64,000 nucleotides of DNA from Prorocentrum cordatum (GCA_963575745.1 CAUYUJ010000029.1:1-64000), one strand, 5' to 3'. Positions 523 to 57,704 are shown, counted from the first letter of the stretch. A program made the numbers and translations. The notes: generated from the sequence alone by a model not told the origin.

Positions 523-3500
523 CTCGTCGGGGGGGAGGCCTCCTCCCCCTCCCCCTCCATACACAATATAAATCCTACCGTCCTCTTCCCTCTGGTGACG
601 TCATGAAGATGTCCGGCCCCCATCCGCGTACTGCCTTTTACGCACAAGGTTCCCGGGACATGTGTTTCGCTTGGGTTATTTTTCAAAATGTTACTCCCGC
701 TGAGGCGCTGGCCTCATTTTCGCGCTTCCACTCATTCCGAATCGTGCTCCCGCTGGAACGCTGGCCTCATTTCCGCGCTTCCGCTCGTTCCGAATCGTGC
801 TCCCGCTGGAACGCTGGCCTCATTTCCATGCAATGCTACAACATCCGACTGTGCGAATAGAGAGGAGATCTTCGCCATGGTAAGGGATGGGAGGGATGGG
901 TGGGACGTCAAATATGACGCGAGCGCACCTAGCTTGCCTTCCTCCCCCTCTTCACTCTGCTGCTCACCCTTCTCCTCCCCTTCGCCGTCCACCTCCTCAT
1001 CCTCCTGCTCCTCCCTCTCCTCCTCCTCCTCTTCCTCGTCCTCCTTCTTTCTCCTCCTCTTCCTCCTTCTCCCCTTCGCCATCCTCCTCGTCGTCTTCCT
1101 CATCCACGTCCTCCTCGTCGTCCTCCTGCTCCTCTTCCTTCTTCTCCTCCTACTCTTCCACCTCCTCCTCCTTCTCCTCTCGCTCTCTCCTTGCTGTGAG
1201 GAGGGGGGAATATTATGCTGCTGCTGCTGCTGATGCTGCTGATAATGATGCTGATGACGAGGAGGAGGAAGAGGAGGAGGAGGAGGAGGGGGGGGGAGGC
1301 GGGATGATGCCGATGAGGATGATGAGGAGCACATGGAGGAGTATGGTAAATGCATCTTTTGTCATCGACGGCCAGATGCCCACAATTAATGATGACATGG
1401 AAGAAGACCATGTCGAGCACCAATATCACGAGAACGGCAACTAAGCACGACAAAACCCAACTATGAAGAATGATACAGCGTGCAATGCCGTATTTGCAGC
1501 AACAATCTCTCATATCATGCACCACGCAGTGGCCGCCCTCGATAGGAAGCCACATGCAACTCCAGGAAACCATCAATCACATAACATACCATGAACCCCC
1601 ACCCGAGGAGTATGAGGACAGGAGCGGAAGAAAAGGATGACAAGGCGGAGGGGGATGAGGGGTAGTAAGGAGAGGTCGCGACTTCCTGGAGACATGCAGG
1701 AGTTCTGGGACGTGCAGGCTAGCTTATTCGGAAGCTTTGAAGAAGACGCCCAAACATCAATCTGTGTGTTTTCACGCTGGCTAGCCTTTAGGCTCGCTCT
1801 TGGAATGATGAGTGTAGCTTGTAGAGAGAAGGTCCTCGGCTCCCGCTTCCGCCAGCCACTCTGCGCTAGCAAGACCTTGGCTACGCCAGTGGCTTGCTGC
1901 GGCGACGCCTGTGGCATCCCATTGGTATGCCTATTGCTACGCCTGTGGCTACGACGATGGCTTCCGCCACGCGTGCGGATTCCGATGGCACACGCCTGCG
2001 GCTATGCCCAAGACCACGCCTCTGGCACCATGCGGAGAGCATATCCCATGTGCTCCTGTGTGGGCCTGCGTGCTACCGTGGAGCCCAAACTGCAGAGTAT
2101 CATCAGATCAGCCAAGCCATTTCAGACCCCCCCCCCCGTGGGAGAACCCTCCAAAACATCGTCCCCAGACCCCCCCCCCCGAGATGAGACCCCCCTCCCT
2201 TTTATTACGAAATCTGGAGTAAACAGAGTACAGGAGGAGGAGGAGGAGGAGGAGGAGGAGGAGGGGAGGAGGAGGAGGAGGAGGAGGAGGAGGAGGAGGA
2301 GGAGGAGGAGGAGGAGGAGGAGGAGGAGGAGCAGGGGGAGGAGAGAGGAGGAGGAGGAGGAGGAGGAGGAGGAGGAGGAGGAGGAGGAGGAGGAGGAGGA
2401 GGAGGAGGAGAGTACAGCAGACCCGACGTGCAGCAAGAGGAGGCGCTTACTCCAGGTGTCCAGGTCGAACGAGCCAGTGGGCCCTGCCCCGGTCCCCCCC
2501 CCTCCCCCCCACACTACCAGAAGAACCGGCAGTGGTAACACCTGAAGGGGCCCCACAGACACACAAAGAAATATACACACAGATGAAACGATTCTCCATA
2601 TTTTCTCATATTTTCTGGGTTTCCGTCTTCCCATATTTTTTCTTGGGAGTCGACGCTTCATTGCGTCTGAGTGCTTTCTCCCCTCCTGAGTAACACCTGA
2701 TCTCGTGACAGGAACGCGTCCCCACCCAGCGAACGGAGCGCACTCGCGCGCGGTCCCGCGTCCGACGACTTGGCGAAGGAAAAAAATGCGGGCCGTCAAG
2801 GGTCGGGGGCGGAACTTCCGAACGTGTCTGCGCGGCGAGGCGGCGAGACCACCATTCGCCTTGTCTCCTGCGAACGAATTTCCGATGAGAGCGGCGGCGG
2901 CGAATCATGCGCCTCGCCGGAACAACGCTGTAAAGGACAAGTGCGATTCGTCGGGGGTATCGTAGAGCATGCAGAGCATGGGTAGAAAAAGGATAAGCAG
3001 AGTGGGACGTGGATTGGAGCACGTGAAAGGTGGGCACCGTACACGGTGGGCACGTTGGACACGGCGGGATCACCCCGCACGAGAAGGACTGAGTCGGGCA
3101 CGCTGGATTGGCTGGGCAAGGCGATTGTGTGGGACAGCGCGAGAGGTAAGCGATTGCTCCTTGGGCGACTACCTCAAGAGCGCGGGCGAACACATCCGTG
3201 ATACAACAACTGCGGGCAATGGTGCTTTAACATCGTTGTGGGCGATCCCGCAGCAAACTAGAAACATGACTGTCTGTGAACATAATATGTTTACGACGTT
3301 TCGTTTTGTACGTACAGTGATGACATTTTTTATCTATGTGGGCGCCGAGCGGGCTCGGCGGTTTCATGCATAAATTCTCCATTCAGCGCGCGGCGAGCCC
3401 CGCCGCGCGGCGTGCGCGGGCGGCCGCCGACCCCGCGGCTCACTCGCGCCCGCGGGCCGCCGCAGCAACTGCGAAGCCGCGGGCGCAGAGGGCGCCCTCG

Positions 3501-6500
3501 AGCCCAGGTCGGACCTGCCGCGGCTCTTCGGCCTCCGCCCGCGGGGCCGCCGCGACCAGGCGCCGCGGCGCCGCGGCGCACGGCGGCGCTGCCGCCTGGC
3601 CCCCATCGCCAGCCGCAGGTGGCGGGGGCGGGGCGGCCGCAGGCTGCCGCTGCGATGGCACGGGCGCCGCCGCGAGCGCCTGCTCCTCCGCCCCGTGGCC
3701 CAGCCTGGCCTGGGGCGCCGTCGCCCAGCACAGGCGCGTGCTCTCCATCGGCGGGGCCAGCGGCGCGAACGGATCCTTGGACGCAGGCAGGGTGCCCCGT
3801 GCGAAGTCCGTCCGCGCCTGGGCTCGGGAGCCCCTCAGGGACGTGGGCTGCCCAGCCGCCGCGCTGGCCCCACGCGGCATGGCCAGGCCGCGATGCGCGC
3901 ACCTGGGGAGGCGGCGGTACCCCCAGCACGCTGAGCATACCAGGGGGGGCTCGGAGCCGTTGCCCTCGACGCGCGACCCCCGTATGAGGTGGCCGTAGAC
4001 CCTCAATCCCGCTGGACGGGCCACATCCGCCGCCACCTCAGGGGCAGGGCCGCTGCAAGCCGCCGCTGCCGCCGCCCGCCGCGGGCTGGGCTCGGGCGCC
4101 GAGGCCTGGCGGCGCCTCGACTGCTCCTGCACCCTGCGCTGGGGGGCTCGGCGCAGCACCTCCGCGGGCCTATCGGCCGAGGCGGGGCGGCGCCTCGCGG
4201 GCGACGGCCGCGAGCAGGAAGCGGCCGCTGCCGCCACTGCTGCCAGGGCCGCCGCCGTGGCGAGGAGGGGGCCGCCGTCAGCCGCCGCGGCCTGCGCCTC
4301 GCCGTCGCCAACGTCAGCCTCCGCGACTGGCATCTGCAAGTTGCCAGCCGCTGACACGACAGGCCCGCGCACCTCCGCGTCGTGCAACTTCCCGAACTCG
4401 CCGCGCCCCTGGGACTGCGACTTCGGTGGGCTGAATCCACCTGTCCCAGGGGCGGGCTCCGCCGCGGCGGCGTGCAGGAAGTCGACCTCGCCGTCGAACT
4501 CTGCCACCAACTCGGCAGCTCGCAGCAAGTCGGCGGGGCTGCGACCTTGCCTCCAGCCCCCCCAGGCAGGGCACCTGTGGTGGCGGCGGGCCAGGGTCCC
4601 GCTCTCCTCGCCGCGGAGCTGGCACAGAGTCGCAGGCCTGGCGTCGTACTCCTGGACCGCTGCCTCCTTCCTGTCCTTCTCCTTGGCCTTCTCCGCAACG
4701 AGGGCGGAGGAGTACCGCAGGGCGAAGCAGCAGCCGCACTCGTCCTGCTGGTAGTCGCCGTCGCCGTGGAGGCCCCTGTGTGACGCCAACGCTCTTTCGA
4801 TCGCCCGCAGGAAGGCCTGCCCTTGCACAGTGGGCACCTGGGTCACCTCTTTCAGCGAGACGAGCTTCTTGCCTTCGAACGCGGTGCTGCCCGCCTGCTC
4901 GAAGTTGCGCCCCAAGCTCCTGGCCACCTGCACCAGGTGCTTCATGTAGCCTACGTGCCCCACAGGGGGAGAGCAGCCCGCAGCAGCCGCTCCGAGCTGT
5001 CTGGCGATCCTCCCGAGGCGGAGGCGGCAACTGGTGAGGGGGCTGAGCTTCCTGACCGCCTTCCTGCGCTGCTGGTCCGCCAGCTTCTTCTTGACAGAGC
5101 GGGGTCCTTTGGCCCTGCCCTGGTACCACTCACCCTCGGAGATGCCGAACTGGTCGGTCAGGTGGAGCTCCGCGGTCTCGACGGACTCCTTGAGCCTCCT
5201 GAACGGGAGCTCGAGGTAGGCGCTGACCTCCGTGACCGCGAGATCACCGAAGGCCACCCTTCGGGCCAGGATGCGGGCACTGTGCTGGTGCCCGTCGTGG
5301 TCGGTCGCCGCCACGCCCCAGGTCGTTGACTCCAGCACTCCGACGCCCTCCGAGCCCGCCTGCGCCGCCTGCCCCGTGCTGTGGACGCTGCCGAAAGCGG
5401 CGCTGAAGCTGTTGCTCCTGGCCCAGCAGCAGGCGTTGGCCGCCTTCTGGCTATAAGCGCATCGCCTCTCCTGCGCCAGGATGACGTCGTCTCCTCCTCC
5501 TTCCTGGATCCGCTCCATCTCCACCTTCTTCTCTGACGAGGTCGAGACGTTCAGCGTGACGAAGCTAGTTGGCTTCGGCCCCGTAGGCCTGATTTGCTTG
5601 GCCAGCTGGAGGGGCTTGGCCTGCGGTCGCCCAGGCTGAGGCTGGGCCGCAGGCTGCTCGGTTGCCGCGGCGGCCGCGGGGCCGCCAGGCGGGCGGCTGC
5701 TCGCCGCCTCGGGGCTCCGAACCTCAGGGGGTCTCACTCCCTCTCCCGTAGCCTCGTAAACTTGAATTGGGTACCCACTATGGCATGTGGGCCCCTGGCT
5801 AGGCTGAGGACTGCCAGTCCTTCGGTCGGGCCCAGCCAAGCCAGCCGCAGCGCTTGGCTCTGTCCTGCTGCTGAGCGCCTCGAACTTGGTGTCGTGGCGC
5901 ACGACGCCGAAGCGCCGTTCCTGGCGCAGCAGCGGCACAATGAAGGGAAGTTCGACCCAGGCGTCGGTCGCCACGTTGGCCGCCTTGTAGGCGGGCAGGC
6001 CGCCACCCGGCGCCGCCGCAGCCTCTGAGCGGCTGGGCGCCGCCGCCTCTGTCCCCTCAGCCCCAACAGGGGCGGGCGGCGCCGCGCTGTCGGGGCCGCC
6101 GCCTGGCAGCAGGGTGCTACGCGCGGGCCAGGCCGCTGCCAGCAGCAGCGCCAGCAGGAGGTGGAGGGGCCGCCGCAGCGGCCTTCTGGTCGGCAGCGCG
6201 CTGGCGGGCCGCCTCGTCTGCCGCTCGGCTCTCCATCGCTGCCGCTGGGGGAGTCCCAGCCCCAGGCGCAGCGTCTGCAGCGGGGGCGGCGGGGGCAGCA
6301 GGGGCGGCCGCCTGCCCGGCAGGCTGCGGCGGGGCGCCCGCGCCCTGCACGGGGGTGCCAGGGGCCACGGCTGCTGCAGGCCCCTCCTCGGTGCGCTTCC
6401 GCTTCTTGGCCACCTCCTCCGCGATCTGGCGCTTGATGCGCTGCTGGTGCTCCTGGCAGTTGCGCTCGAACGTAGCCTGCGCGCCCTGCATGATCTGGAG

Positions 6501-9500
6501 CCCCTCATCGCAGAGGCGCCTGAGGGCGGCCTGCGCCTCCTCCTCCAGCTCGGCGAAGTTGTCAAACGACTCCGCGTCAAAGTTGAAGGTGGGCAGCCTC
6601 GCGCCGTCGGGCTGGGCTCCCACGACGCCCGCCGCTTGGGCACGCTGGCGCAGGAGGGCGTTCTCCTCCCCCTTGGCCTCCGCGAGGCTGCCCGCAGCCT
6701 CGTCACGCCAGCCGCGGCATTCAGCGAGGTGGTCCTCCGCCGCCGCGAGCGCGTCCGCCGCCTCATCCAGCTGGCGCTGGAGGTTGATCCGCTTCGCCGT
6801 GGCCGACTCCAGACGTTGCTCGAGCGGCTTCGGCACTGGGGCGACCGCGGGCGCGACAAAGCTCCGCGCTTCGCGGACCGCCTCCTGCAGCCTGGCTGCG
6901 ATGGCTGGGTCCCCACAGGCGAGGAGCGCGTCGAGCTCGCTCTCGGGCAGGGCCGACCAGGGGGCCCTCGGGAAGGCGCCTCCGCCATGGCAGCCCGCGC
7001 CACCCCCGCCGCCGCCACGGGAGGCTGCACCGCCGCCACCACGGTAGGCTGCACCGCGGCCCTTGCCGCACTTGCCGCCCTTGGCTCCATTCTTCGGTGG
7101 GCCTCCGCCGCCGCCGCCGCGATGTGCGAGTTGGGGTCCGCCGCCGCCACCGTCCGCCCAGACCCCAACGCGGGGCGAAGGCTTCGAGGGCGCCAGCTCC
7201 AGCCCGATCCCGCACAGCCAGCACTTCGCTCTCGAGCGGAAGTTCCAGCGGTACCGGCAGCCCGTGCACACGACGAAGCCAGGCACGGCCTTAGGCCCCA
7301 TCGCTGGTACGGTCGGGCGCGCTGCTCAGCTGCGGGCAAGCAGCAGGCAGGAGACGGCGGGGGCGGACCCGCCGACTCAGAAGAAGACTTGACCCGCAGG
7401 TCCTGGAAGGTGCTGCTGTGGCAGCTGACACACTTAGGAAAGGAAGGTGGCCTCAAAGCGGAACCTCCCTCGCGCTCAGAAGTCGCCCCGAAAGACTCGC
7501 GGTCGTCGGGACGGTTCATGGCCTTGAGCCAAAATGGCTACGGAACACAGTGATGGCATTGGATAAGGAACCCTTCGATAAGGAATCCAGGGTCTGGATT
7601 CCAGTGGAACTCCAATCGAAGCTTTGCCATGGATGTCACCGCCGCCCTCATCAGATAAGGAGTCCTCCAGGGTCTAAAGCCTCCTGGGCACAATCCTTTA
7701 CCAACGCCCCCACCGAAATTTGAATGAATGGGAGTGAACTTGACATGGCGTAGCAATATGAAACACACCTACTATGATCCGATAGCGAGTTGAGAACGGA
7801 CCGGCCGACACGTGTGCTGTAAGCAGAGAGCTCCATAATAACAGTGCGTATTACTCTGGGTAGGTCGGAAGCTGGGCGAAAGCTGGCAAATCCGTGGCAG
7901 CTAAAACGGCCTTGCCGGAAAAACAAAACACACATTCCCATAATAAAACTCAACGCGCTGAATAGTAAACGGGCTTCTTCCCGGAAGAAAAGCAAATTCC
8001 CAGAGCTCCGTTTTAGCAGCCACGGGTTTGCCAGCCTTCGCATGGCTTCTGAGTAGGAGTGGGGTGGCGCACCACAGAGCAGGAGGAGGAGGAGGAGGAG
8101 GAGCAGGAGGAGGAGGAGGAGGAGGAGGAGGAGGAGGAGGAGAGGGGGAGGAGAAGAGGGGAGGAGGAGGAGGAGAAGGAGGAGGAGGAGGAGGAGGAGG
8201 AGGAGGCTGCGGTAGCTCGTGACTCGTGACGAACCTACGTATGAAAAAACACGAGGTACAACATATCAGCGTGCGAGAGGAGAGGGGGCCCAGCCTGTGG
8301 CCCTCCTCCTCCTCCTCCTCCTCCTCCTCCTCCTCCCCCTCCTCCTCCTCCTCCTCCTCCTCCTCCTCCTCCTCCCTCCTCCTCCTCCTCCTCCCCCTCC
8401 TCCCCCTCCTCCTCCTCCTCCTCCTCCTCCTCCTCCTCGTCCTCCTCCTCCTCCTCCTAGTGCACGGGCACTTCCCCTTTACAGACGCTCGCCAAGGATG
8501 ACCACGGCCACAACCATGGCGTAGCGGAACTTGCACCAGGCGAGCATTTTATCATAGCGTGTCAGAAGTGCGGAGCCTATGCTGTTTCGAGCCCTCGCAA
8601 CTTGCGCAATGAGTGTCCTGCGCGAGTCACCGCAAGACAGATTCGGGCAGCACGCGTGTTGCCTAGGAGCAGATCTGCAAGGGCAAGCATCCCTGGAAGG
8701 CAAGGATGCAACTATGCCCTCCATTGCCTTTATCGAGCAGAGACCGACCGTCCCGGCATTTCTATAGTCCTACCACGAAATGTTCTTAGAACCCAACCAC
8801 TGTCTTATAACAACAACAAAGTTCTTAGAACATAAACCCGACGTGCTAAAACAAAACAGACTCTGCCAGAAATGTTCTAAGAACATTTTGTGGATACCAC
8901 AAAAGGTTCTTAGAACATTGTTTGGTAGGGCGATAGGCGAGCCGCGGCGTGGACAGCGAGTCCTGTTCAAGTGAACAAGATCCGCTGTCGGGCATTGTAC
9001 TCACTCTTTCCGTGCAACTCGTTCGTGCAGACTCTCCCCGTCCTCCCCGTCACGCGCCCTCCTCGCACGTGGCCCGCGGACAGGTGCACGCTCGCCGCAG
9101 CACCTGGAACCTCACCGCGGAGGCGAGGGCTCGAGCCACGCCCTCCTCCCCTCCCCCCCGTTGCCCCTGCCCTGATCCGAAAGGGTCCGCGAGGGGGCGC
9201 TGCGCGCGCATGGCCGGCCGGCCCGCGCGGGCCCTCGGGCTCGTCGGCTGCGCTGGCGCGGGGAGCAGGTCGACCAGCTGGCTGCAGTACAGCTCCTTCG
9301 GGCAGGGGGGGCCGGCGGCGGCGAAGACGACGACCGACGACGGGGAGGAAGGGGGAAGGGCGGCGGAGGTTAGGGAGGTTAGGGAGGAGGAGGAGGAGGA
9401 GGAGGAGGAGGAGGAGAAGGAGGAGGAGGAGGAGTTGCTTTTTCCACGCAACAGTGGTAATGAAGGATCAACAATCGAAGACATCCACCAGAGACCACGG

Positions 9501-50677: not shown

Positions 50678-52545
50678 CCCTCCCCGAACCGACCTCGATC
50701 TGCTATACCTCTGTCCGGCCGCAGTCCGTTGATGGCCTCGGGGCCCGCGGACAGGGCGAGACCCGTCGGGGCCCGTTTCCCTCAGGAGCCGCTTGCTTCC
50801 TGGCGATCCCACCTTCCACACACCTCCCCCGCTTCATCCTCCATCCCCATCCTCCCTCTCCTCCTCCTCCTCCTCCTCCTCCTCCTCCCTCCTCCTCTCC
50901 TCCTCCTCCCTCCTCCTCCTCTCTGGGCATCGCTCGGACGTCCATTCCCTGTGTTTTGTTCGGCTCCGTGCGTGGTTATTCTTTCGCCAACGGATCGAAG
51001 CATGCTCCTCGAGAGGTCCTCGCCGAGGGAAAAAGTGCACACGTCCGAGCGATGCCCAGAGATCTTGGCAGGCCAGACCCGCTCCCCTCGCCGCCCCTCC
51101 GCCCACCCGCGACCCCGCGGCGCCGCCCCTCGCTCCGAGTGCCCGCCTGCCCCGAGGGTGCGCGGGCCCCCCTCCTGGAGCGCCCAGCCTGCTGTGCCGA
51201 CCGCGGCCTCCCCTGCCAGGAGGAGGAGGAGGAGGAGGAGGAGGAGGAGGAGGAGGAGGAGGAGGAGGAGGAGGAGGAGGAGGAGGGGGAGGAAGATCAA
51301 CCGGCGTCGGGCCGGGAAGCCGGCTTCGGCGGCGGCTGCGGCTGCCCCAATCATCGGCTACACGCAAGAGTGACCCTGGGTAAGAATGACCTTTGGTGCG
51401 CGGCTTGTTGGGGGGCGCGGGGGGACCAAACCTGAGCGCGCAAGCCGCTGCTACCGCTTCGTTTTCAGCCATCCGAGGGCCCATCTGTGCCCGCACCCAA
51501 GGTCACTCCGGCGAAAGGTCACTCTTACGTCTAGTCGAAATCACTGCAAGATCAACCGGCGTCGGGCTGGGAAGCCGGATTCGGCGGTGGGCAAGCCTCC
51601 CTTTAGCAAACCTCCCCTCAACGAAAACGGCCCAGGACCGAAACACACGGACATGGACCCGCAAAAAGGACGGCCGCGAGGCCCCCTCGCGAACCGAAAA
51701 AATCGCAATCCGCTAATCGGCGTGTCAGGGTAGGAGGCCTGCCCACCCCCGACGGACAGAACCGCCACGTTCGTCGGATCGGGCTGCGTCGGCACGGAGT
51801 CGAAGTCGAGTCGGATCGGCTAGCATCGGGCTGGCCAGGATCCCTGTCGGAGCGGATCGCATCGAGGCAGACCCTGCGTTGCCCCTCCCCGGCCATTTCA
51901 CGGCTGGCATGCAACCTGCACTCCTGAGCCCTGCGCTGCTCTTGCGACCCCGCCACGGCCTCGCGGGCCTGGACGGGCCACCACCCGTCCTTGCCGAGGC
52001 AAGGGGGGGTGGGCCTTCTGGACGTGGGCCATGGCCTTCGCCAGCCTCTCCTTCGGGCTGGCAGCAAGTGGGGCAGCGGAGGAGGAGGAGGAGGAGGAGG
52101 AGGAGGAGGAGGAGGAGGAGAAGGAGGAGGAGAGGAGGAGGAGGAGGAGGAGGAGGAGGGGAGAAAGGAGGGGGGAGGAGGATAAGCAGGAGGAGGAGGA
52201 GGCGGAGGAGGAGGAGGTGAAGGAGGAGGAGGAGGAAGATCAGCAGGAGGAGGAGGTGGAGGTGGAGGAGTAGGAGGAGGGGAGGAGGAGGATGAGGACG
52301 AGGAGGAAGGACGAGGAGGATGAACGCCCGTCAAGAAGGGCAAGCTAGAACAGGACGAAACTGATGACGATGATGATGATGCTGATGATGATGATGATGA
52401 GGAGGAGGAGGAGGAGGAGGAGGAGGAGGAGGAGGAGGAGGAGGAGGAGGAGGAGTCGAGCGTGCGGAGGGGGAAGGCTCCAGGCTCCCGACGGCCGCGC
52501 CCCGCGCGGCGCCAGCAGCCCCCGCGCACGCGCTTACCTGCTCAC

Positions 52546-52745
52546 AGGCAGCGCGCCAGGAGGAGGATGCCGAACATCTCCTCGGATGTGATCTGGATGC
52601 TGATCGCGATCAGCGGCGGCTCCACGGAGCCGAAGTGGATGAAGTACGTCGGCATCTCCCACACGATGCCGATCAGGTGCAGGTGGATGTCCGTGTCCAG
52701 GGGCCGCCCCCACCCGACGGTGGCGATGGTGCTGACGCAGCACGG
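52546..52745 (-). CDS. Probable host exon of unknown domain (CVSTIATVGWGRPLDTDIHLHLIGIVWEMPTYFIHFGSVEPPLIAISIQITSEEMFGILLLARC), possibly an upstream exon of the kinesin gene
   Basis: Almost all codons end in G/C in this frame; followed by a GTGAG donor and a GC-rich intron-like flank; directly abuts the LINE 3' end. Confidence 0.55.
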
Positions 52746-52749
52746 GCGG

Positions 52750-53590
52750 CGGCTTCTTCATGGTCTTCGTGGCCCTCAGTGCCGCCCTAGCGGCCGTCAG
52801 GGTGGCCTCCGCCGAAACGTGGGTCTCCTGCCTGAGCATGTGGTACGTGAGGCAGGCAACCGCGATGGACTCGGCGCACTCGTTGGACTGGTCTATGAGC
52901 CCGAGCTTCGCGAACTCGGTGGAGAGAGGGGGCGCGCCGCAAGCACGCCCCACAGCAAGCGCCAGTGGCGCGCAAACGAGGTAGTGGCACATCTTGTCTT
53001 GGCCGCTTGCGCAGCCGAAGATGCACAGGCGCCTACCACACGGGTAGGCGATGCGGTAGGACGTGAGCCACGAGAAGGACAGCGTCCTCATCCACGCTGT
53101 CGCCCACGATGGGGGCAGCCTTTTCATGGCGGTCTGGATGTCATGCATGATGGTGGGGTTGTGGATGAAGAGCTCGCTAGCGTGTGGGAGCTCTTTCACG
53201 ATGCGGTCCTGCAGGAAGGGCCCGATGCCGTCGGCCCCGCGGGTGGTCAGGGCCGAGGCGTAGGCATGCTTCTGCGCGAGGCCAGGCTGCTCGTTGGCGA
53301 CCGCCGCCCGCGCGGCCTCGATCGCTGGTGCCACCAGCTGGTGGGGGTAGTACACGTGGTCAGAGGTGGCTGTCGCGATCTGGTGCATCGTCTCCACAAA
53401 GGCCTGCGACTGCCACCACGGCGGAGAGAGATGGAGGGCACCCCGCGCGGCACCCTCGAGGGTCTGCTGGAGGCCGTAGGAGTTCAAACCTGCGTGAAGT
53501 CTCTCACGGATCTCGGCGAACTTCTTGAACGTCGAGGTCACCGCGCGGACGATTGTCGCTAGCAATCTGAGCTGGAGGGACCTCGGCGCG
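52750..53590 (-). CDS. Frameshifted C-terminal part of LINE ORF2 with CCHC zinc knuckle
   Basis: CIFGCASGQDKMCHYLVC; removing one base from the G7/C4 run at 53591-53601 joins it to the RT frame. Confidence 0.8.
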
Positions 53591-56500
53591 GGGACCCCCC
53601 CAGTCCTTCAGTAAGGGCCAGTCCGTCAACCTGAATGCGCCGTTCGGGAAGCGCAGGATGGAGGTGTTGATCCAGCTCTCATGCTTGAAGTGTTCGTGCG
53701 GGAGCAAGGCGTATTGGGCAAGGTAGCCGAGGACGGGGGGCGCGCGCCCGTTGTACAGGGAGACTGCCCCAACGGCTGGCGCATCACTTGCACTGTGCGC
53801 CTTTACTCGGGAGCGGTACTTGTTGAAGGCCTTCGCGTAAATCAGCTGGTCCGTGGCACCGGGGCCCAGCAAGAGGCCGAGGTAGGTGAGGTGGTCGCAT
53901 ATTTTGAAGTACTTGAACTTCGGGACGATGTTGAGCAACGTATTCTTGAGCTTGAGGATGAGGTCGGCGTTGACCTGGCCTGCCAAGGGGATGATGTGGC
54001 ACTTCGGCGCCTTCAACTCCAGACCAGCCAGAATTTCCATGCAGAGCATGACGTCGGCGAGGTAGACCAGGTAGGCGGCGGCCCGAAGGACGAGCCCGAG
54101 GTCATCAGCGCATGCGCGGCAGAGTCCACGGCCTTGGGCTTCGAGGACGGTCTCGAGGTTGAGGAGGAAGCTTGCAGTGCCCATTGCGCACAGCGTGCCG
54201 CTCCAGCCGCATCCTTGGATGATGCCCGACCTGATATAGAAGAGCGGGACGTACTGGCCAGCGCACGGGGCCATCGCGAGGATGTTGTTGCACATGGAGT
54301 CAAAGAACATGAGGATCGCTTCGGGAGCGCCCATGGCCTTGAGCGCCAGACGGATGAACTGGTGGGCGAAGCTGGGGAAGGCCTGCGCGATGTCCAGCGA
54401 CACGAGCACTGGCAGCATGTCCTGGGCGTCTGGATCGGCCGAGGCAATGCGGCTCTCGGCGTCAAGCTCGAGGATGTTGTAACCGAAGTTACGCCGATGG
54501 ATGAACCCACGCTGTGAGGCTGGGACCACCTCGGCTGCCACCACTGCCGTCGCAGCATTCATCGTGCTGCTGATTATCTTGAGGGACGTGTTGCGCAATC
54601 CTAGGACACGGACTTTGGACGGGTCTCGATGGCAGCCGTGATGTTCCGAGTCCTCTGGTTCCACACCTTTGGGCAAGAAAGCTTGGACGGTCGCGTTCAC
54701 TTCGTCGGGGAGGATCCCGCCGTTGAGCATGTAGCACATGACATCCCAGAGAACCTCGGTGCACTTCTCGTGCGCGGACCAGGCGAGATACGGCAGTCCG
54801 TCGAGGCTTGGTGAAATGGAAGACGAGCGCCTGGCAAACTTCTTGAGCGTCTCGTAGTCTGGCGGCCTGTACTTGGAGAAATCGATGGTGGGCGAGAACT
54901 GGTTCAGGTAGACAGCGGCCTTGGTCACGTCGACGGTCTTGCCTGCGAAGACCGGCTGCCAGTGCTCCACAAGCTTCTTGAGCCGCTCGTTGGGGCCCGT
55001 CACGGTGCCCTCGCTGGTCTTGACTCCCGTCAGGATCAGGCGCTTGCTGAGTGGGTTCCAGAGCTGGAGCTTCCTTTGCAGGGCTTGGGTTTGTCCACGT
55101 GCTTGAGCGGGTCGAAGGCGCCCACGTTGAACTGCTTGGTCGATGGCTGCCTGACGCTGTTCAGCGTCTTGGCGGAAGAGGTTGCTTGCCCACTCCTCGA
55201 ACTTGGCATGATCGATGAGCCCGACACTGTCACCATTGATCTGGATGTGTTCTTGTGCGACTAGGTGCGAGCGAAGGAGGCGAGCAGCGAGTTGTCGGTC
55301 TTGGCGCCAAGCCGCGCGTGAGATCGACTTCGCTACCTGAAGGAGCACGCCGCCTCTGCTCGGATGCATTTCATGAAGACGGTCACGAGCTTCACGTGCA
55401 ATTTGTCTGAGAAGATCGGTGGTCTGAATCAGCTTGGTCGGCGGGGGCAGGTGGTCCATGGGGGGGGCGGCAAACACCTTGTCGGCAATCTCCCTGAAGA
55501 CGGGGGACTTGACGATGTACTGGGCGATCGGCTGGTTCGGCGAGGGTTTGGCATCGCGCATCGTGAAGGAGACGAAGAGGGCGGCATGGTCACTAACACG
55601 ACGGCGTGAGAGGTCTTCAGGTGTGGAGAAGGTGGCGGACGTGACAGCCAGCTGCAGCATCTGAGTGGGAGTGAACAAGCAGAAGCATCTGTCGATGGTG
55701 GTCTCGGCCTTCGTCTCGAAGCAGTAGTGCGTGGTGTCGGCGCTGTCGATCTCCACTAGGTGCTTCAGGGCGTTGTGCCACTTGCGGGCCGATGCTTTGG
55801 ACGTTTCAGTTGGGTTCGAGTTGCCCTTTGCCACAGGGTCCAGGAGCTTCAGCTTCCCTACGGCGGAGAAGTTGCAATCCCCAGTGACGAACAGGACAAC
55901 GCGGCTCGGGTCGGACCTCGCCCACTGAAGGTCGCTGTTGATGCGCGTGGTGATGTTCTGGATGGTGGCGTTGCTGAGGTCGTAGTTGTGGATATTGTAG
56001 AAGATCATCACTTGGTCGCCAGCACGGCAGACAGAGCGTAGAACACGGCCAGGGAAGACGGGGTCGCTCACAGCATTCATCCCAGCAGGGAACACAGTGG
56101 CAACCCCGCCACTGATAGTGCCATGATGTCCAGGAGCAAAGGAGGAGTGCATGTCTAGGGCGCTGTCGATCTTCCGCATGAAGGCAAGGAGCTGGCCGTG
56201 GTTCTGGTGGACCTCCTGGATGCCCAGGGCCATCTTGCTCAGCGGCATGGACTTGAGGTACGCGGACTTCTCCACGACGCGTCTGCCCTGGTAGCCCAGG
56301 AAAGCGCGAGCGTTCCATGTGCCGACGGCCAGGCAGGCCGTCGGCCCACAGGCCAGGCGGTTCTGGCTGCGCGCCAGCTCGTCAAAGCCAGAATTGCGGG
56401 GCGGCTTCAGGTGCAACAACAACGTTGGCGGCGTTCTTGAGGGTCGTGCGGTCGATGCCCAGCGCGGGGAGGCCGGTGTCCTGGAACGTGAGGATGGTCG

Positions 56501-57682
56501 GCTCGTCCCTGCCTGGGCGGACGCTGTACGCAATGACGGGGGCCCAGCCTGCAGTGATCCAGGCCTTGGTGCGGTCCACGCGCCAGACATGGTTCGGGAA
56601 CTCGCGTTCCATGGCCTGGCGGAGGCGCTTCCCCACGATCTCCGTCTTGATCTGCTTCGGCGACTTGTCGGGGCCCATCCGCAGCTCGACCGCCCCGTGG
56701 CCCGAGACAGCATCGGCGTAGATGCGCACCCAGGTGCCGTTGGTCGAGCGCATGCTGTCCAGGACTTTCTGCACACGGCGGCTGGCGGGGCCAGGGAGGC
56801 CCGTGAACTTGATGGTGAAGAATTTGGCGGTGTCGTTGCCAGTGACAGTGAAGTCAGTCTCGCGGATGTCGCAGCCCACCGCGAACTTGGTGAGAGACTC
56901 GGTGGCCTTGGCCAGGGTGACCAGGCCGTCCGCGTGGACCTTGATGATCGTGGCGTCGATTTCGCGATCGAAGTCGCGGCTGGTGAACTGCTGTTTGATC
57001 GGCTGCTTGTTGGCCGTGGCAAGCTCGTGTTGCAATACTTTGATCTGCTCCGCCATGAGCTCGATTGCTTTGTCGGTCTTCTCCTGTTTGGCCTCCACTT
57101 CGCCGACGCGAATTTTGAAGGCGTCGAGCTGTTGCTGGAAGTGCTTCCTCGTGGCGTCGATCTGCTGGCCGACGGCGAGGTGGACGTTCTTTTCGATCTT
57201 GGCGCCCAACCCGTCAATGCCGTCCTGGGCGGCCTTGAGCGCCGACGAGATGGGATTGGTGGCGGAGCTGACCACGGTGGTGACGGTCGAAATGATGGAC
57301 TCTTTGATTGCGGTCTCCATCGCGTCGATCTTCGACTGGAGGGACTGCACGTAGGCCATGGTGGCGTACGCGTCCAGATCAACTTCATCTCCCTGCGGTG
57401 GCGAACGGGAGCGGTCAGCCCTGCCGCCAGGATCGCCACCAGGCTCGCCAGGAGGAGGACGCTTCGAAATCCCTTTGCAGCGCAGTGGCATCGCGGCGGG
57501 CGAGCCTCCTTTCTCCGACATGGCGAGGAAGAGGTCTGGGACGCTCGCTCACACAAGAACGGGAAAGGCCTCCGTTTACCCGTGACGGCGGACGTCGGTG
57601 CGGGTGAAGTCTGCCAGGCCACAGGTGGCCTTGCCTGCCGCGGACTAGCGGTGTCCGCTTGTTCCCCTGATGGACTCACCAT
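53504..57682 (-). CDS. LINE ORF2: apurinic-like endonuclease + reverse transcriptase
   Basis: APE: GTWNARA, LGIQEVH, GDCNF, TIDRCF, SDH. RT: SPSLDG, FLPKG, SQRGF, LDIAQAF, GIIQGC, CADD (54101-54112), LTYLG. One-base frameshift near 53591-53601. Confidence 0.93.
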   Translation of the reverse strand: MVSPSGEQADTASPRQARPPVAWQTSPAPTSAVTGKRRPFPFLCERASQTSSSPCRRKEARPPRCHCAAKGFRSVLLLASLVAILAAGLTAPVRHRREMKLIWTRTPPWPTCSPSSRRSTRWRPQSKSPSFRPSPPWSAPPPIPSRRRSRPPRTALTGWAPRSKRTSTSPSASRSTPRGSTSSNSSTPSKFASAKWRPNRRRPTKQSSSWRSRSKYCNTSLPRPTSSRSNSSSPAATSIAKSTPRSSRSTRTAWSPWPRPPSLSPSSRWAATSARLTSLSLATTPPNSSPSSSRASLAPPAAVCRKSWTACARPTAPGCASTPMLSRATGRSSCGWAPTSRRSRSRRRSWGSASARPWNASSRTMSGAWTAPRPGSLQAGPPSLRTASAQAGTSRPSSRSRTPASPRWASTARPSRTPPTLLLHLKPPRNSGFDELARSQNRLACGPTACLAVGTWNARAFLGYQGRRVVEKSAYLKSMPLSKMALGIQEVHQNHGQLLAFMRKIDSALDMHSSFAPGHHGTISGGVATVFPAGMNAVSDPVFPGRVLRSVCRAGDQVMIFYNIHNYDLSNATIQNITTRINSDLQWARSDPSRVVLFVTGDCNFSAVGKLKLLDPVAKGNSNPTETSKASARKWHNALKHLVEIDSADTTHYCFETKAETTIDRCFCLFTPTQMLQLAVTSATFSTPEDLSRRRVSDHAALFVSFTMRDAKPSPNQPIAQYIVKSPVFREIADKVFAAPPMDHLPPPTKLIQTTDLLRQIAREARDRLHEMHPSRGGVLLQVAKSISRAAWRQDRQLAARLLRSHLVAQEHIQINGDSVGLIDHAKFEEWASNLFRQDAEQRQAAIDQAVQRGRLRPAQARGQTQALQRKLQLWNPLSKRLILTGVKTSEGTVTGPNERLKKLVEHWQPVFAGKTVDVTKAAVYLNQFSPTIDFSKYRPPDYETLKKFARRSSSISPSLDGLPYLAWSAHEKCTEVLWDVMCYMLNGGILPDEVNATVQAFLPKGVEPEDSEHHGCHRDPSKVRVLGLRNTSLKIISSTMNAATAVVAAEVVPASQRGFIHRRNFGYNILELDAESRIASADPDAQDMLPVLVSLDIAQAFPSFAHQFIRLALKAMGAPEAILMFFDSMCNNILAMAPCAGQYVPLFYIRSGIIQGCGWSGTLCAMGTASFLLNLETVLEAQGRGLCRACADDLGLVLRAAAYLVYLADVMLCMEILAGLELKAPKCHIIPLAGQVNADLILKLKNTLLNIVPKFKYFKICDHLTYLGLLLGPGATDQLIYAKAFNKYRSRVKAHSASDAPAVGAVSLYNGRAPPVLGYLAQYALLPHEHFKHESWINTSILRFPNGAFRLTDWPLLKDWGGPRAEVPPAQIASDNRPRGDLDVQEVRRDP
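56382..57521 (-). CDS. LINE ORF1 protein (379 aa), coiled coil plus a putative RNA-binding region
   Basis: GC3-rich ORF directly upstream of the APE domain; long heptad-like region (QQQLDAFKIRVGEVEAKQEKTDKAIELMAEQIKVLQHEL), as expected for L1-type ORF1p. Confidence 0.8.
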   Translation of the reverse strand: MSEKGGSPAAMPLRCKGISKRPPPGEPGGDPGGRADRSRSPPQGDEVDLDAYATMAYVQSLQSKIDAMETAIKESIISTVTTVVSSATNPISSALKAAQDGIDGLGAKIEKNVHLAVGQQIDATRKHFQQQLDAFKIRVGEVEAKQEKTDKAIELMAEQIKVLQHELATANKQPIKQQFTSRDFDREIDATIIKVHADGLVTLAKATESLTKFAVGCDIRETDFTVTGNDTAKFFTIKFTGLPGPASRRVQKVLDSMRSTNGTWVRIYADAVSGHGAVELRMGPDKSPKQIKTEIVGKRLRQAMEREFPNHVWRVDRTKAWITAGWAPVIAYSVRPGRDEPTILTFQDTGLPALGIDRTTLKNAANVVVAPEAAPQFWL

Positions 57683-57704
57683 CTTGGGCCAAAATGGCTA
57701 CGGA
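57683..57704 (-). other. Dinoflagellate spliced leader copy with 1 mismatch (TCCGTAGCCATTTTGGCCCAAG)
   Basis: 21/22 match, immediately followed by ATG. Confidence 0.95.

What the first reader, a model, noticed from the sequence alone, without database searches (positions are those of the whole stretch)
3314..57704. Spliced-leader-capped LINE system: retrotransposons whose 5' end is the DinoSL, co-oriented with the host gene
Seen: three unrelated insertions (3326-7544, 33654-35224, about 52750-57704) each begin exactly with the 22-nt DinoSL, all on the same strand as the kinesin gene; the first two lie in its introns. Two carry LINE ORFs, and one has both a TSD and an A-tail. Established: DinoSL is trans-spliced onto nuclear mRNAs, SL relics mark dinoflagellate retrogenes, and typical LINEs rely on an internal promoter. 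Inference: these LINEs are promoterless. They would ride host read-through transcription, and the retroposed SL, which ends in AG, would act as a trans-splice acceptor that regenerates an exact capped full-length 5' end each cycle. The window would then show a near-autonomous element, a deleted derivative and a passenger RNA of one system.
Basis: partly seen in the sequence, partly recalled or inferred. Interest (0 to 1): 0.9.

Follow-up and report, generated by a model that had tools for sequence, protein, structure and literature searches.

The report
Spliced-leader-headed LINEs in a dinoflagellate
In the red-tide alga Prorocentrum cordatum, LINE-type jumping genes are copied back into the genome together with the short leader that the cell splices onto its messenger RNAs, which shows how these elements get their front end and points to a candidate for the machinery behind the alga's many gene retrocopies.

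Summary
Three DinoSL copies (two exact, one with one mismatch; none in 100 shuffles) lie on the minus strand. They head three mutually unrelated units co-oriented with a kinesin gene.

- **E3 (57704→~52460):** an L1-like LINE. ORF1 folds as coiled coil-RRM-CTD, and the top 10 PDB matches are all human L1 ORF1p. ORF2 has a non-LTR RT. One private frameshift. The endonuclease is unconfirmed.
- **E1 (7544→3326):** 12-bp TSD and A6 tail. It is a deletion derivative of a second family, with ORF1, half an EEP nuclease and no RT.
- **E2:** a processed retrocopy of unknown origin.

New evidence: contigs of two runs show other, diverged E3-family copies with a canonical SL at the same junction, and family depth falls to flank level upstream of the SL. 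Two environmental contigs picked only for a DinoSL encode E3-type ORF1 about 200 nt behind it.

So the SL is the standard 5' end of this LINE lineage. Re-trans-splicing at the retroposed SL and dependence on host read-through remain logical but untested, because no RNA run was available. I found no published statement of this.

The parts
7523..7544 (-). E1: 22-nt DinoSL (TCCGTAGCCATTTTGGCTCAAG), exact, at the 5' end of the element
7547..7558 (-). E1: 5' copy of the target-site duplication (TGCCATCACTGT). Two extra bases (GT, 7546-7545) lie between it and the SL.
3314..3325 (-). E1: 3' copy of the target-site duplication (TGTCATCACTGT), 11 of 12 identical to the 5' copy
3326..3331 (-). E1: A6 tail
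6117..7301 (-). E1 ORF1 (ATG at 7301). It has a C-x2-C-x10-C-x2-C motif, a Gly-rich stretch and a coiled coil, with GC3 of 0.8-0.9. It is 85-87% identical to parts of P0011 and P0012.
3440..6460 (-). E1 second ORF (frame +1 relative to ORF1, about 1000 codons, GC3 0.8-0.9). It is a mosaic of modules shared with 16 proteins of the 1.84-billion-protein library, and it has no RT.
5201..5659 (-). E1: N-terminal half of an EEP (APE-type) nuclease. It aligns with P0013 (Pfam Exo_endo_phos, E 1.4e-6) up to ...SAYLEL; the C-terminal half is deleted.
35203..35224 (-). E2: 22-nt DinoSL, exact
34087..35169 (-). E2: 360-codon ORF. Coding periodicity is seen only in about the first 190 codons. No Pfam family. 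There is a weak 36-aa match to both halves of P0016.
33654..33659 (-). E2: A6 tail, followed by imperfect (CCT)n
35225..35295 (-). (CCT)n microsatellite directly upstream of the E2 SL. Its counterpart at 33554-33653 lies directly downstream of the A6 tail.
57683..57704 (-). E3: 22-nt DinoSL with one change (C instead of T at 57687, giving CCCAAG)
57522..57682 (-). E3: 161-nt leader between the SL and the ORF1 ATG. In other family copies the first 13 nt differ at 6 of 13 positions, while the SL next to them is canonical.
56382..57521 (-). E3 ORF1 (379 aa): long helix 49-172, RRM fold 186-288 and a C-terminal alpha/beta domain, which is the L1 ORF1p-type architecture. Homologues lie in L037 and L059.
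53504..56500 (-). E3 ORF2. It is in the +1 frame, overlaps the end of ORF1 and has no ATG of its own before the conserved part.
55427..56296 (-). E3 ORF2 N-terminal domain, a putative APE-type endonuclease. The assignment rests only on motif order (TWN...IQEV...GDCNF...TIDR...SDH).
   Evidence: Read. Not supported.
53990..54622 (-). E3 reverse transcriptase domain (Pfam RVT_1, E 1e-7, 32.3 bits against a cut-off of 29.6). The best solved relatives are R2 retrotransposon proteins.
53592..53598 (-). E3: run of 7 G that shifts the ORF2 frame. 5 contigs of run X1 lack one base here, and P0001 reads through.
52800..53607 (-). E3 ORF2 C-terminal part after the frameshift, with a Cys/His-rich motif (CGRRLCIFGCASGQDKMCHYLVC)
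52456..52784 (-). E3 3' region. 52545-52784 has GC3 of 0.9 in a third frame and is shared with P0001 and P0002. There is no A-tail; the element ends against (CTC)n at about 52456-52463.
57705..57727 (-). (CCT)n directly upstream of the E3 SL. Its counterpart at 52399-52455 lies directly downstream of the E3 3' end.
44789..44884 (-). Kinesin exon piece (RIHNLVEDLKGSIRVYCRVRPL...); Pfam Microtub_bd, E 5.5e-7
26900..26965 (-). Kinesin exon piece (...VLDGYNVTVFAYGQTG); Pfam Kinesin, E 3.4e-8
21415..21432 (-). Kinesin exon piece (GKTHTM..., the continuation of the P-loop)

Best explanation
The three units are target-primed retrocopies of RNAs that had received the dinoflagellate spliced leader by trans-splicing. 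One of these RNAs is the mRNA of an L1-like LINE of Prorocentrum cordatum.

Shown:
- E3 is SL, then a 161-nt leader, then an L1-type ORF1 (coiled coil-RRM-CTD), then an ORF2 with a non-LTR RT.
- The SL sits at the same junction in other, diverged copies of the family.
- The family does not extend upstream of the SL.
- Distant ORF1 relatives in two other dinoflagellate sources are also SL-headed.
- E1, from a second, non-autonomous family, has the SL at its 5' end, separated from a 12-bp TSD by two extra bases (GT), plus an A-tail. Its template therefore began at or within two bases of the first SL base.
- E2 and E3 are both embedded in (CCT)n microsatellites.

Inferred:
- The 5' end of this LINE lineage is defined by trans-splicing and not by an internal promoter that starts at +1.
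- Trans-splicing discards everything upstream of the acceptor, so a new copy carries no upstream promoter of its own. It must be transcribed from outside, by read-through of the host transcription unit.
- To give the same relic-free 5' end again, it must be trans-spliced at the AG that ends the retroposed SL.
- The same machinery, acting in trans, would explain passenger retrocopies such as E2 at the same kind of target.
For: 1. SL: 3 matches against 0 in 100 shuffles, all on the minus strand. None has an SL-gene intron.

2. E3 is a LINE.
- RVT_1 scores E 1e-7, above Pfam's cut-off.
- A profile of 11 family members hits only R2 retrotransposon proteins among PDB RTs (E 8.6e-6).
- The ORF1 model has mean pLDDT 72. 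Its top 10 Foldseek matches among 350,542 chains are all human LINE-1 ORF1p (best E 1.2e-4).
- The RRM fold scores Z 7-8.6. 2ykp_C is the only listed row that spans three domains (180 residues aligned, Z 7.2).

3. It is a multi-copy family. All 10 of 10 protein hits are named P. cordatum, at 48-91% identity. 414 contigs of run X1 were laid, in identity classes 66/128/147/73.

4. The SL is a family feature. Loose ends at 57669 in 6 X1 contigs and 2 X2 contigs continue with 13 diverged nt and then a canonical ...CTCAAG SL, at the same distance as in E3.

5. Nothing is conserved upstream. Depth is 1.9 at 57826-58000, against about 40 over the body and 77 over 57438-57631.

6. Generality. Among loci chosen only for an exact SL, L037 (E 2e-15) and L059 (pairwise E 3e-13) encode E3-type ORF1 on the SL strand, about 200 nt behind the SL and without a relic SL. 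L059 against L037 is colinear at E 0.005. There were 0 hits in 776 kb of viral SL loci as a control.

7. TPRT marks. E1 has a TSD and an A6 tail. E2 and E3 are flanked on both sides by (CCT)n, which covers 4.2% of the window. The chance that 2 or more of 3 junctions abut it is about 0.005.

8. Logic from the literature. Heras et al. 2007 (PMC1874656, abstract and passages read) state that trans-splicing loses the sequence upstream of the acceptor, and that trypanosomatid LINEs avoid it and start at +1 from an internal promoter. Song et al. 2017 (PMC5585692, passages) name the AG in the SL as a potential acceptor.
Against: - No transcript evidence of any kind was obtained, as no run on record as RNA was listed. 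Re-trans-splicing, read-through and activity of SL-bearing copies are therefore untested.
- E3 itself is defective (frameshift) and E1 is deleted, so the copies in the window could all be dead ends.
- The kind of run X1 is only guessed ('DNA?'). It may be the sample the window was assembled from, and X2 holds a small share.
- Loose-end consensi are cut at 30 letters. They cannot show what lies upstream of the SL in the other copies, nor tell a full SL from a 15-nt relic preceded by AG.
- Contig depth is a poor measure of copy number, as the tool itself warns.
- E3's endonuclease is not confirmed by Pfam, PDB sequence search, hhalign (probability 0.1) or AF2 (pLDDT 38).
- L037 and L059 end before any ORF2, so they are LINEs only by ORF1 homology, and L037 has an in-frame stop.
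- 0 of 110 sense ORFs behind metagenomic SLs had an RT, though only about 4 non-viral loci reached 3 kb.
- Co-orientation is 3 of 3, which chance gives at 0.125-0.25.
- In retrogenes the usual acceptor is the internal AG, which leaves relics (PMC12014239 passages). Use of the terminal AG would be the less common choice.
Confidence: 0.7

Rival explanations
1. Master-copy model. The active source elements are not SL-headed. They sit behind a promoter and outron of their own or of a host gene, and their RNA is trans-spliced at a natural acceptor. Every SL-headed copy is then a dead-on-arrival product that never serves as a template.
For: E3 has a frameshift and E1 is deleted. No transcript evidence exists for SL-bearing copies. 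3 of 3 elements lack relic SLs, which is what single-cycle products look like. Only about 8 of 101 non-gene metagenomic SLs have a relic, so relic-free copies are the norm for ordinary retrocopies too.
Against: Depth falls to flank level upstream of the SL, and the best-supported loose end at the 5' end is the SL-bearing variant, so no abundant longer form is seen (only 13 of 93 loose ends were shown). Subfamilies at 48-91% protein identity and ORF1 relatives at about 24% identity in other dinoflagellates, all SL-headed, imply long serial propagation. That is hard to sustain if every progeny copy is sterile.
Confidence: 0.25
2. SL-as-promoter model (Song et al. 2017, 2018). The retroposed SL itself carries a promoter motif (TTTG or TTTT) that starts transcription of the new copy, so neither host read-through nor an acceptor role of the SL is needed.
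For: The model is proposed for dinoflagellate retrogenes on the basis of conservation of TTT(G) in relic SLs (PMC5585692 and PMC6050394, passages read). All three SLs here keep the TTTTGG core.
Against: A transcript started inside or just behind the SL would lack the first SL bases, yet all copies seen have the leader complete from its first base, with the TSD two bases upstream in E1. Such an RNA would still need trans-splicing with almost no outron.
Confidence: 0.1
3. DNA-level duplication. A single ancient SL-headed retrocopy of the LINE was multiplied by segmental or tandem duplication, so the shared SL junction says nothing about the RNA of the family.
For: The depth profile over E3 is flat, with no 3' excess, unlike the 5'-truncated L1 families of animals (depth is a poor measure). 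Dinoflagellate genomes are rich in duplicated DNA (PMC11453091 passages).
Against: Depth drops sharply at both element ends, whereas duplicated segments would carry flanks along. E1 and E2 are unrelated units with the same SL head, and E1 has a TSD. L037 and L059 have different flanks and very diverged ORF1.
Confidence: 0.08
4. Artefact. cDNA or transcript sequence was mis-assembled into the genomic contig.
For: SL-headed, intron-free, A-tailed sequence is what a cDNA looks like.
Against: All three are embedded in continuous flanking DNA with a TSD or matching microsatellite flanks. The SL-LINE junction recurs in contigs of two runs from two studies. L037 has 519 nt of genomic sequence upstream of its SL and L059 has 102 nt.
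Confidence: 0.02

Closest known systems
DinoSL-tagged retrogenes ('recycled processed cDNAs', Slamovits and Keeling 2008: not read, recalled and cited in passages of PMC6050394 and PMC12014239; Song et al. 2017, PMC5585692, passages read)
   Same: A genomic copy of the spliced leader at the 5' end marks reverse transcription of a trans-spliced mRNA. There is no SL intron. A-tail remnants are present in E1 and E2.
   Different: Here the retroposed RNA is the retrotransposon's own mRNA (E3) or that of a non-autonomous derivative (E1), so the SL is the heritable 5' terminus of a mobile-element lineage and not a one-off tag on a host gene. No relic SL is seen in any of them. The papers whose passages I read treat the retroposing machinery as unknown or favour LTR/copia elements.
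L1-type LINEs (human LINE-1)
   Same: ORF1 has a coiled coil, an RRM and a C-terminal domain. ORF2 has a non-LTR RT and a Cys/His-rich C-terminal motif. The motif order of an APE-type nuclease is present. E1 shows a TSD and an A-tail.
   Different: The 5' end is the host spliced leader instead of a 5' UTR with an internal promoter (the latter is recalled). E3 has no A-tail and sits in (CCT)n. The endonuclease is too diverged for Pfam, PDB or hhalign. ORF2 has no ATG of its own and overlaps ORF1 in the +1 frame. There is no sign of the usual excess of 3' ends (weak).
Trypanosomatid LINEs L1Tc/ingi with the Pr77 internal promoter (Heras et al. 2007, PMC1874656, abstract and passages read)
   Same: These are LINEs living in a genome where mRNAs are made by SL trans-splicing of long transcription units.
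   Different: This is the opposite solution. L1Tc and ingi transcripts start at +1, are unspliced and lack the SL, which keeps the promoter in the RNA. The P. cordatum family carries the SL and therefore cannot keep any upstream promoter.
   Same: A physical link between a non-LTR retrotransposon and the spliced-leader sequence.
   Different: Those elements insert into the SL RNA genes themselves. Here the complete 22-nt SL precedes the element, the flanks are unique DNA or a microsatellite, and no SL intron follows.
Microsatellite- or repeat-targeting LINEs (for example R1-clade elements of insects): recalled, not read
   Same: E2 and E3 are flanked on both sides by the same simple repeat. 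L037, L006 and L044 lie behind one 21-bp satellite, and L059 lies behind (GT)n.
   Different: Target specificity is only inferred from a few junctions. Among 71 metagenomic SL junctions, only 4 abut a 36-nt tandem repeat (against 1 of 328 control positions, p 0.004). E1 has an ordinary TSD.

Membership tests
Non-LTR retrotransposon (LINE) | Reverse transcriptase of the non-LTR type | tested here: met
   For E3, Pfam RVT_1 gives E 1e-7 and 32.3 bits, above the 29.6 cut-off. The family profile hits R2 retrotransposon proteins in PDB (E 8.6e-6). This is not met for E1: there is no RT in E1 or in the 8 relatives scanned.
Non-LTR retrotransposon (LINE) | Endonuclease (APE/EEP type) N-terminal to the RT | tested here: inconclusive
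   For E3 only the motif order TWN, IQEV, GDCNF, TIDR, SDH is present (the catalytic meaning is recalled). There is no Pfam match at E up to 10, no PDB match, hhalign against an EEP profile gives probability 0.1, and AF2 gives pLDDT 38. For E1 the N-terminal half aligns with P0013, which passes Pfam Exo_endo_phos.
Non-LTR retrotransposon (LINE) | Insertion marks of target-primed reverse transcription (TSD, 3' tail) | tested here: met
   E1 has a 12-bp TSD (11 of 12 identical) and an A6 tail. E2 has an A6 tail. For E3 there is no A-tail, and a TSD cannot be read because both flanks are (CCT)n.
Non-LTR retrotransposon (LINE) | Dispersed multi-copy family | tested here: met
   For E3, 10 proteins from separate P. 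cordatum contigs and 414 contigs of run X1 in four identity classes. For E1, 16 relatives in the representative library.
L1 group of LINEs | ORF1 protein with coiled coil, RRM and C-terminal domain | tested here: met
   The AF2 model has mean pLDDT 72 and a helix at 49-172. The Foldseek top 10 are all human L1 ORF1p (best E 1.2e-4, but TMq only 0.22 and rmsd about 17 A). VIA-align gives an RRM at Z 7-8.6 and 2ykp_C at Z 7.2 over 180 residues, tied with single RRMs by Z. No RT phylogeny was made, as no reference LINE set was at hand.
DinoSL-tagged processed retrocopy | Spliced leader encoded in genomic DNA at the 5' end, not part of an SL RNA gene | tested here: met
   The SL-gene intron pattern seen in 25 metagenomic loci is absent after all three SLs.
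DinoSL-tagged processed retrocopy | Intron-bearing parent gene elsewhere in the genome | not testable with these tools
   No whole genome is held.
SL-gene-specific LINEs (SLACS, CZAR, CRE, NeSL) | Insertion inside a spliced-leader RNA gene | tested here: not met
   Upstream flanks are unique DNA (E1) or (CCT)n (E2, E3). The SL is complete and is followed by element sequence, not by the GTA...Sm-site intron. Rfam finds no RNA gene in the window.
LINE with an internal promoter (L1, L1Tc Pr77 type) | Transcript starts at element base +1 and keeps the promoter | not testable with these tools
   No RNA run was available. The genomic copies begin with a trans-spliced leader, which argues against this feature but does not test it.

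The most novel reading that the evidence does not exclude
A lineage of L1-like LINEs in dinoflagellates has given up the internal promoter and uses the host's spliced-leader machinery to define and cap its 5' end. Each new copy carries the retroposed SL, and the SL's terminal AG lets host read-through transcripts be trans-spliced again at exactly the same base, so full-length RNA is regenerated in every cycle without relics. This lineage inserts into simple repeats. Acting in trans on any SL-capped mRNA, it would be the unidentified engine behind the mass formation of SL-tagged retrogenes in dinoflagellates.
Probability: 0.3. Interest if true: 0.85.

Novelty: new variant of a known kind. Interest (0 to 1): 0.62.

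Why it matters
**LINE biology.** A LINE must keep its promoter inside its RNA or lose it at each jump. In trypanosomatids, where mRNAs are likewise trans-spliced, LINEs solve this by avoiding trans-splicing (PMC1874656). An SL-headed LINE lineage is the opposite case. It raises a sharp, testable question: how does a promoterless copy get transcribed and recover its exact 5' end?

**Dinoflagellate genomes.** More than 20% of genes are reported as SL-tagged retrocopies, yet the papers whose passages I read call the mediating retroelement unknown, or favour LTR/copia elements. This window shows an L1-like element that carries the same tag. It also shows a passenger retrocopy in the same kind of target, and a TSD plus A-tail on a third unit. 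Together these make target-primed reverse transcription by this LINE lineage a concrete candidate.

**Practical use.** SL plus ORF1 gives a simple search key for full-length, recently active elements in the very large dinoflagellate genomes.

Tried and rejected
- **Plus-strand reading of the stated start coordinates:** no SL there, because the elements are on the minus strand.
- **Own genome:** not held.
- **Earlier scan notes:** nothing by place, sequence or words.
- **RNA evidence:** no RNA holder was listed. X3 laid nothing, and X4 laid only a simple repeat at 57749-57783.
- **E3 ORF1 in JGI metagenome contigs:** 146 pattern matches, none confirmed.
- **RT behind metagenomic SLs:** 0 of 110 ORFs. 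This is weak, since only about 4 non-viral loci reach 3 kb or more.
- **E1 stretch 660-1010 against proteins of 750-2389 aa:** none.
- **Kinesin piece against longer proteins:** none.
- **119 short minus-strand ORFs below 26.6 kb in Pfam:** no further kinesin exon. My first kinesin motif scan found nothing; relaxed patterns found only the P-loop pieces.
- **E3 endonuclease:**
  - no Pfam match at E up to 10;
  - PDB phmmer returned only a chance capsid hit at E 1.3;
  - hhalign against the E1-family EEP profile gave probability 0.1;
  - the AF2 model had pLDDT 38 and was not searched;
- **E1 against E3 relatedness:** none by blastn, tblastx, tblastn or hhalign.
- **Two protein comparisons made in the wrong frames:** these are void and were redone.
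- **The last 240 nt of E3 and the L037 and L059 ORFs in Pfam:** nothing meaningful.
- **Rfam on the window:** 0 matches.
- **E1- and E3-type proteins in 119 viral SL loci:** none.
- **A possible E3 TSD around CTCGACTCCT:** rejected, because the 5' copy is about 55 nt from the SL.
- **Literature:** four searches and passages of eleven papers gave no statement that a LINE is headed by the DinoSL. The library holds open-access papers only, and supplements were not read.

Full report
**Check of the observation.** Read on the plus strand, the stated start coordinates show no leader. A search for the DinoSL 21-mer on both strands, with up to 3 mismatches, gives exactly three matches, all on the minus strand:
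- 7543..7523, exact;
- 35223..35203, exact;
- 57703..57683, with one change (CCCAAG).

The expected count is 0.00, and none of 100 shuffles gave any match. The 15-nt 3' part finds the same three and no others, so there are no additional relic leaders. Each is preceded by T, giving a 22-nt TCCGTAG... leader. The elements therefore run from high to low coordinates.

None is an SL RNA gene. In 25 metagenomic SL genes the leader is followed by GTA... and an Sm-site motif. Here it is followed by GCCATG..., CCTGGC... and ATGGTG..., and Rfam finds no RNA gene in the window. The three units share nothing else by blastn or tblastx.

**Organism and host gene.** All 10 proteins found with E3's ORF2 are named Prorocentrum cordatum. 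Window G+C is 55-70%.

Kinesin motor pieces lie on the minus strand:
- a neck/beta1 piece near 44.8 kb (Pfam Microtub_bd, E 5.5e-7);
- the P-loop piece near 26.9 kb (Pfam Kinesin, E 3.4e-8);
- its continuation GKTHTM... at 21.4 kb.

E2 (35.2-33.7 kb) therefore lies between motor exons. The switch-I and switch-II motifs occur in no frame of the window. The motor probably continues beyond coordinate 1, which would make E1 intronic, but that is an inference. A search for a full-length kinesin model failed, and Pfam on 119 short ORFs found no further exon. Whether E3 is upstream of the gene or in a 5' intron is unknown.

**E3 (57704 to about 52460).** Third-position G+C periodicity marks four coding stretches:
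- ORF1, 57521-56382;
- ORF2 in the +1 frame, from about 56500 to 53504;
- a further frame, 53607-52800;
- a last piece, 52784-52545.

*RT.* The ORF2 frame holds Pfam RVT_1 (E 1e-7, above the curated cut-off). A profile of 11 family members hits, among all PDB chains, three R2 retrotransposon proteins (best E 8.6e-6) and otherwise only a chance match at E 0.16.

*Frameshift.* P0001 reads straight through the point where E3 changes frame. Five contigs of run X1 lack one base at 53595, inside a run of seven G. E3 thus has one private frameshift and is otherwise complete.

*ORF1.* It starts MSEKG..., as does the annotated protein P0003. With family members and two environmental homologues as the alignment, AlphaFold2 gives mean pLDDT 72, with a helix at 49-172 and then two alpha/beta domains. 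Foldseek's top ten of 350,542 chains are all human LINE-1 ORF1p (best E 1.2e-4, probability 1.00). The TM-scores are low (TMq 0.22, rmsd about 17 A) because the domains are placed differently. VIA-align shows residues 186-288 as an RRM (Z 7-8.6, rmsd 2.3-2.7 A over about 80 residues). 2ykp_C is the only listed row that covers coiled-coil end, RRM and C-terminal domain (180 residues, Z 7.2, tied by Z with single RRMs). E3 is therefore an L1-like LINE by its ORF1 architecture and RT.

*Endonuclease.* The N-terminal 290 residues of ORF2 show the motif order TWN, IQEV, GDCNF (GDFNF in the family), TIDR, SDH. From recall, this is the order of the catalytic motifs of APE-type nucleases. None of four tests supports the assignment: Pfam at E up to 10, PDB sequences, hhalign against an EEP profile (probability 0.1) and AF2 (pLDDT 38, unusable). 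The endonuclease is therefore putative.

*3' end.* E3 has no A-tail. Its shared sequence ends at about 52456-52470, against (CTC)n.

**E1 (7544-3326).** The leader is separated by two extra bases from a 12-bp target-site duplication (11 of 12 identical), and the element ends in A6.

Periodicity marks an ORF1 (7301-6117) and a second ORF of about 1000 codons in the +1 frame. ORF1 has a C-x2-C-x10-C-x2-C motif and a coiled coil. Pfam finds nothing in either ORF, even at E up to 10.

An exhaustive HMMER search of the second ORF against 1.84 billion representatives gives 16 hits. The informative ones are:
- P0013 passes Pfam Exo_endo_phos and aligns with E1 only up to ...SAYLEL. E1 therefore keeps just the N-terminal half of an EEP nuclease.
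- P0017 continues after the gap.
- P0011 and P0012 carry the same ORF1 at 85-87% identity, with other internal deletions.

None of the 8 relatives scanned has an RT. E1 is a non-autonomous deletion derivative of a second ORF1-plus-nuclease family. Its autonomous form was not found, and it has no detectable relation to E3. 'One system' is thus not supported in the sense of one family.

**E2 (35224-33654).** It consists of the leader, a 55-nt 5' UTR, a 360-codon ORF with periodicity only in its first half, a 3' part with two internal tandem duplications and an A6 tail. It has no Pfam family and only a 36-aa match to both halves of P0016 (E 4e-4 in a small database). I read it as a processed retrocopy of unknown origin.

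**Targets.** E2 and E3 are flanked on both sides by (CCT)n. Such tracts in the gene sense number 46 and cover 2694 nt (4.2%) of the window, against 1155 nt in the other sense. The chance that 2 or more of 3 5' junctions abut one is about 0.005. E1 has an ordinary TSD. The strand bias of the tracts could by itself produce co-orientation with the host gene.

**Is the leader a family feature?** No genome is held, so I used public runs. One run (X1, kind guessed as DNA) holds 36% of E3's sampled words and a metagenome (X2) holds 11%. No run is on record as RNA. Laid at 85% likeness:
- X1 gives 414 contigs in identity classes 66/128/147/73.
- Depth is about 25-65 over the body, 77 over 57438-57631 and 1.9 over 57826-58000. 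The family therefore stops at the leader and has no conserved upstream part.
- The depth profile shows no 3' excess. Contig depth is a poor measure of copy number, as the tool warns.
- The best-supported loose end near the 5' end is at 57669. Six X1 contigs and two X2 contigs leave E3 there and continue with 13 nt that differ from E3's at 6 of 13 positions, followed by a canonical ...GGCTCAAG leader.

Diverged copies thus have the leader at exactly the same distance. The consensi are cut at 30 letters, so what lies upstream of the leader in these copies is not visible. X1 may also be the window's own source.

**Other dinoflagellates.** A scan for E3's ORF1 in metagenome contigs found nothing. 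Because it found nothing, a second scan was allowed, and I used it for the exact leader. After removing duplicates there were:
- 25 SL genes;
- 26 loci with AT-rich upstream DNA;
- 9 loci with a microsatellite directly upstream;
- 66 others;
- 7 loci with too little upstream sequence.

No RT was found in 110 sense ORFs behind the leaders, but only about four non-viral loci reach 3 kb, and E3's RT lies about 3 kb from its leader.

A local tblastn with the window's proteins, however, hits two loci: L037 (E3 ORF1, E 2e-15, 24% over 270 residues, one in-frame stop) and L059 (P0005's ORF1 part, E 2e-10). Pairwise, E3 ORF1 against L059 gives E 3e-13, and L059 against L037 is colinear at E 0.005. In both loci the ORF is on the leader's strand, starts about 200 nt behind it, and no relic leader is present. 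The same queries find nothing in 776 kb of viral leader-bearing DNA.

Upstream of the leader, L059 has (GT)n and L037 has about 14 units of a 21-bp satellite. L006 and L044 have different leader-headed units behind 1.5 and 4 units of that same satellite. Over all 71 eligible junctions, 4 abut a 36-nt tandem repeat, against 1 of 328 control positions (p 0.004). The link to repeats is real but holds for a minority.

**How it most likely works.**
- *Shown:* the templates of E1, E2 and E3 were trans-spliced RNAs. For the E3 lineage the leader is the standard 5' terminus. The elements carry nothing conserved upstream of it.
- *From established knowledge:* trans-splicing discards the outron. This is why trypanosomatid LINEs keep an internal promoter and stay unspliced (PMC1874656, abstract and passages).
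- *Inferred:* an SL-headed copy has no promoter of its own upstream of its RNA start, so it must be transcribed from outside. A lineage that has diverged to 48-91% within one species, and to about 24% between sources, while keeping one relic-free leader must either re-use the AG that ends the retroposed leader or descend only from SL-less masters.

Song et al. name the AG in the SL as a possible acceptor and propose TTTG in the leader as a promoter motif (PMC5585692 and PMC6050394, passages). In retrogenes the internal AG is the usual acceptor and leaves 15-nt relics (PMC12014239, passages). About 8 of 101 non-gene metagenomic leaders show such a relic. None of this could be tested here without RNA data.

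**Comparison and novelty.** It works like an L1-type LINE that has swapped the internal-promoter 5' UTR for the host's leader. It is not a member of the SL-gene-specific LINEs, because the flanks are not SL genes.

Four literature searches and passages of eleven open-access papers contain no statement that a LINE is headed by the DinoSL. Those on retrogenes call the mediator of retroposition unknown or favour LTR/copia elements. Subscription papers and supplements were not seen. I rate it a new variant of a known kind.

**Side observation.** The AT-rich class of metagenome loci and 119 stretches of the viral collection, mostly giant-virus MAG contigs, carry exact DinoSL copies. Details are under Noticed in passing.

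**Verdict.** The LINE identity of E3 is confirmed, while E1 is a derivative of another family. The leader as a family-wide 5' end is supported by independent data. The promoterless, self-regenerating cycle is a coherent inference that awaits transcript and census data.

Noticed in passing
Loci L127-L206 and further (viral collection); also L002, L003, L017, L018, L043, L047, L061-L063, L065 and L074 (metagenome contigs): Giant-virus contigs encode the exact DinoSL many times. There are 134 unique copies. 127 are preceded by A. Upstream DNA is 12% G+C with a recurrent TGAAA/TTGATAAAT... motif about 45 nt upstream. None looks like an SL RNA gene. 115 are followed by a same-strand ORF, at a median of 49 nt. 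Downstream ORFs include NCLDV capsid, pol X, RecQ and DUF4116. This looks like templated mimicry of the host leader at viral gene starts. A literature search listing (16 papers) showed nothing on it.
   Followed up: partly
L006:100-165, L037 (minus strand) 1336-1620, L044:100-222, L059 (minus strand) 1427-1520: Leader-headed units in environmental dinoflagellate DNA often abut tandem repeats. Three different units lie behind the same 21-bp satellite, and one lies behind (GT)n. Overall 4 of 71 junctions do so, against 1 of 328 control positions (p 0.004). The cause could be repeat-targeted insertion or element 3' tails; it is not resolved.
   Followed up: partly
Whole window, for example 2232-2410, 11641-12255, 16326-16486, 44425-44572, 58154-58258: (CCT)n/(AGG)n microsatellites are very abundant and strand-biased. 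There are 46 tracts (2694 nt) with CCT in the gene sense, against 31 tracts (1155 nt) in the other sense. They create long Pro-, Leu-, Ser- or Glu-rich pseudo-ORFs.
   Followed up: partly
window 52545-52784 (-): The last 240 nt of E3 have very strong coding periodicity (GC3 0.9) in a third frame (...LDTDIHLHLIGIVWEMPTYFIHFGSVEPPLIAISIQITSEE...), and P0001 and P0002 share this stretch. It has no Pfam family. It could be a third small ORF or a captured exon.
   Followed up: partly
window 56382-56500 (-): E3 ORF2 has no ATG before its conserved part and overlaps the end of ORF1 in the +1 frame. The annotated relatives bridge the two ORFs with predicted introns. Translation by frameshifting or reinitiation is possible.
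   Followed up: no
Proteins P0011 and P0012 (relatives of E1): Annotated P. cordatum proteins join unrelated N-terminal parts (in P0012 a DnaJ-like stretch, below Pfam's cut-off) to the E1-type ORF1, starting at ...PGFVVCTGC.... Either intronic copies are exonised or the gene models are chimeric.
   Followed up: no
window 33829-34054 and 34344-34477 (-): E2 holds two internal tandem duplications: about 118 bp twice at 82% identity, and 68 bp twice at 90% identity.
   Followed up: no
window 7545-7546 (-): Two extra bases (GT) lie between E1's target-site duplication and the first base of the leader. These could be untemplated or cap-derived additions at the 5' junction.
   Followed up: no
window 57674-57682 (-): In E3 the leader is followed by ATG|GTGAGT, which matches a 5' splice-site consensus. 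The other family copies do not have it, so it is probably chance.
   Followed up: no
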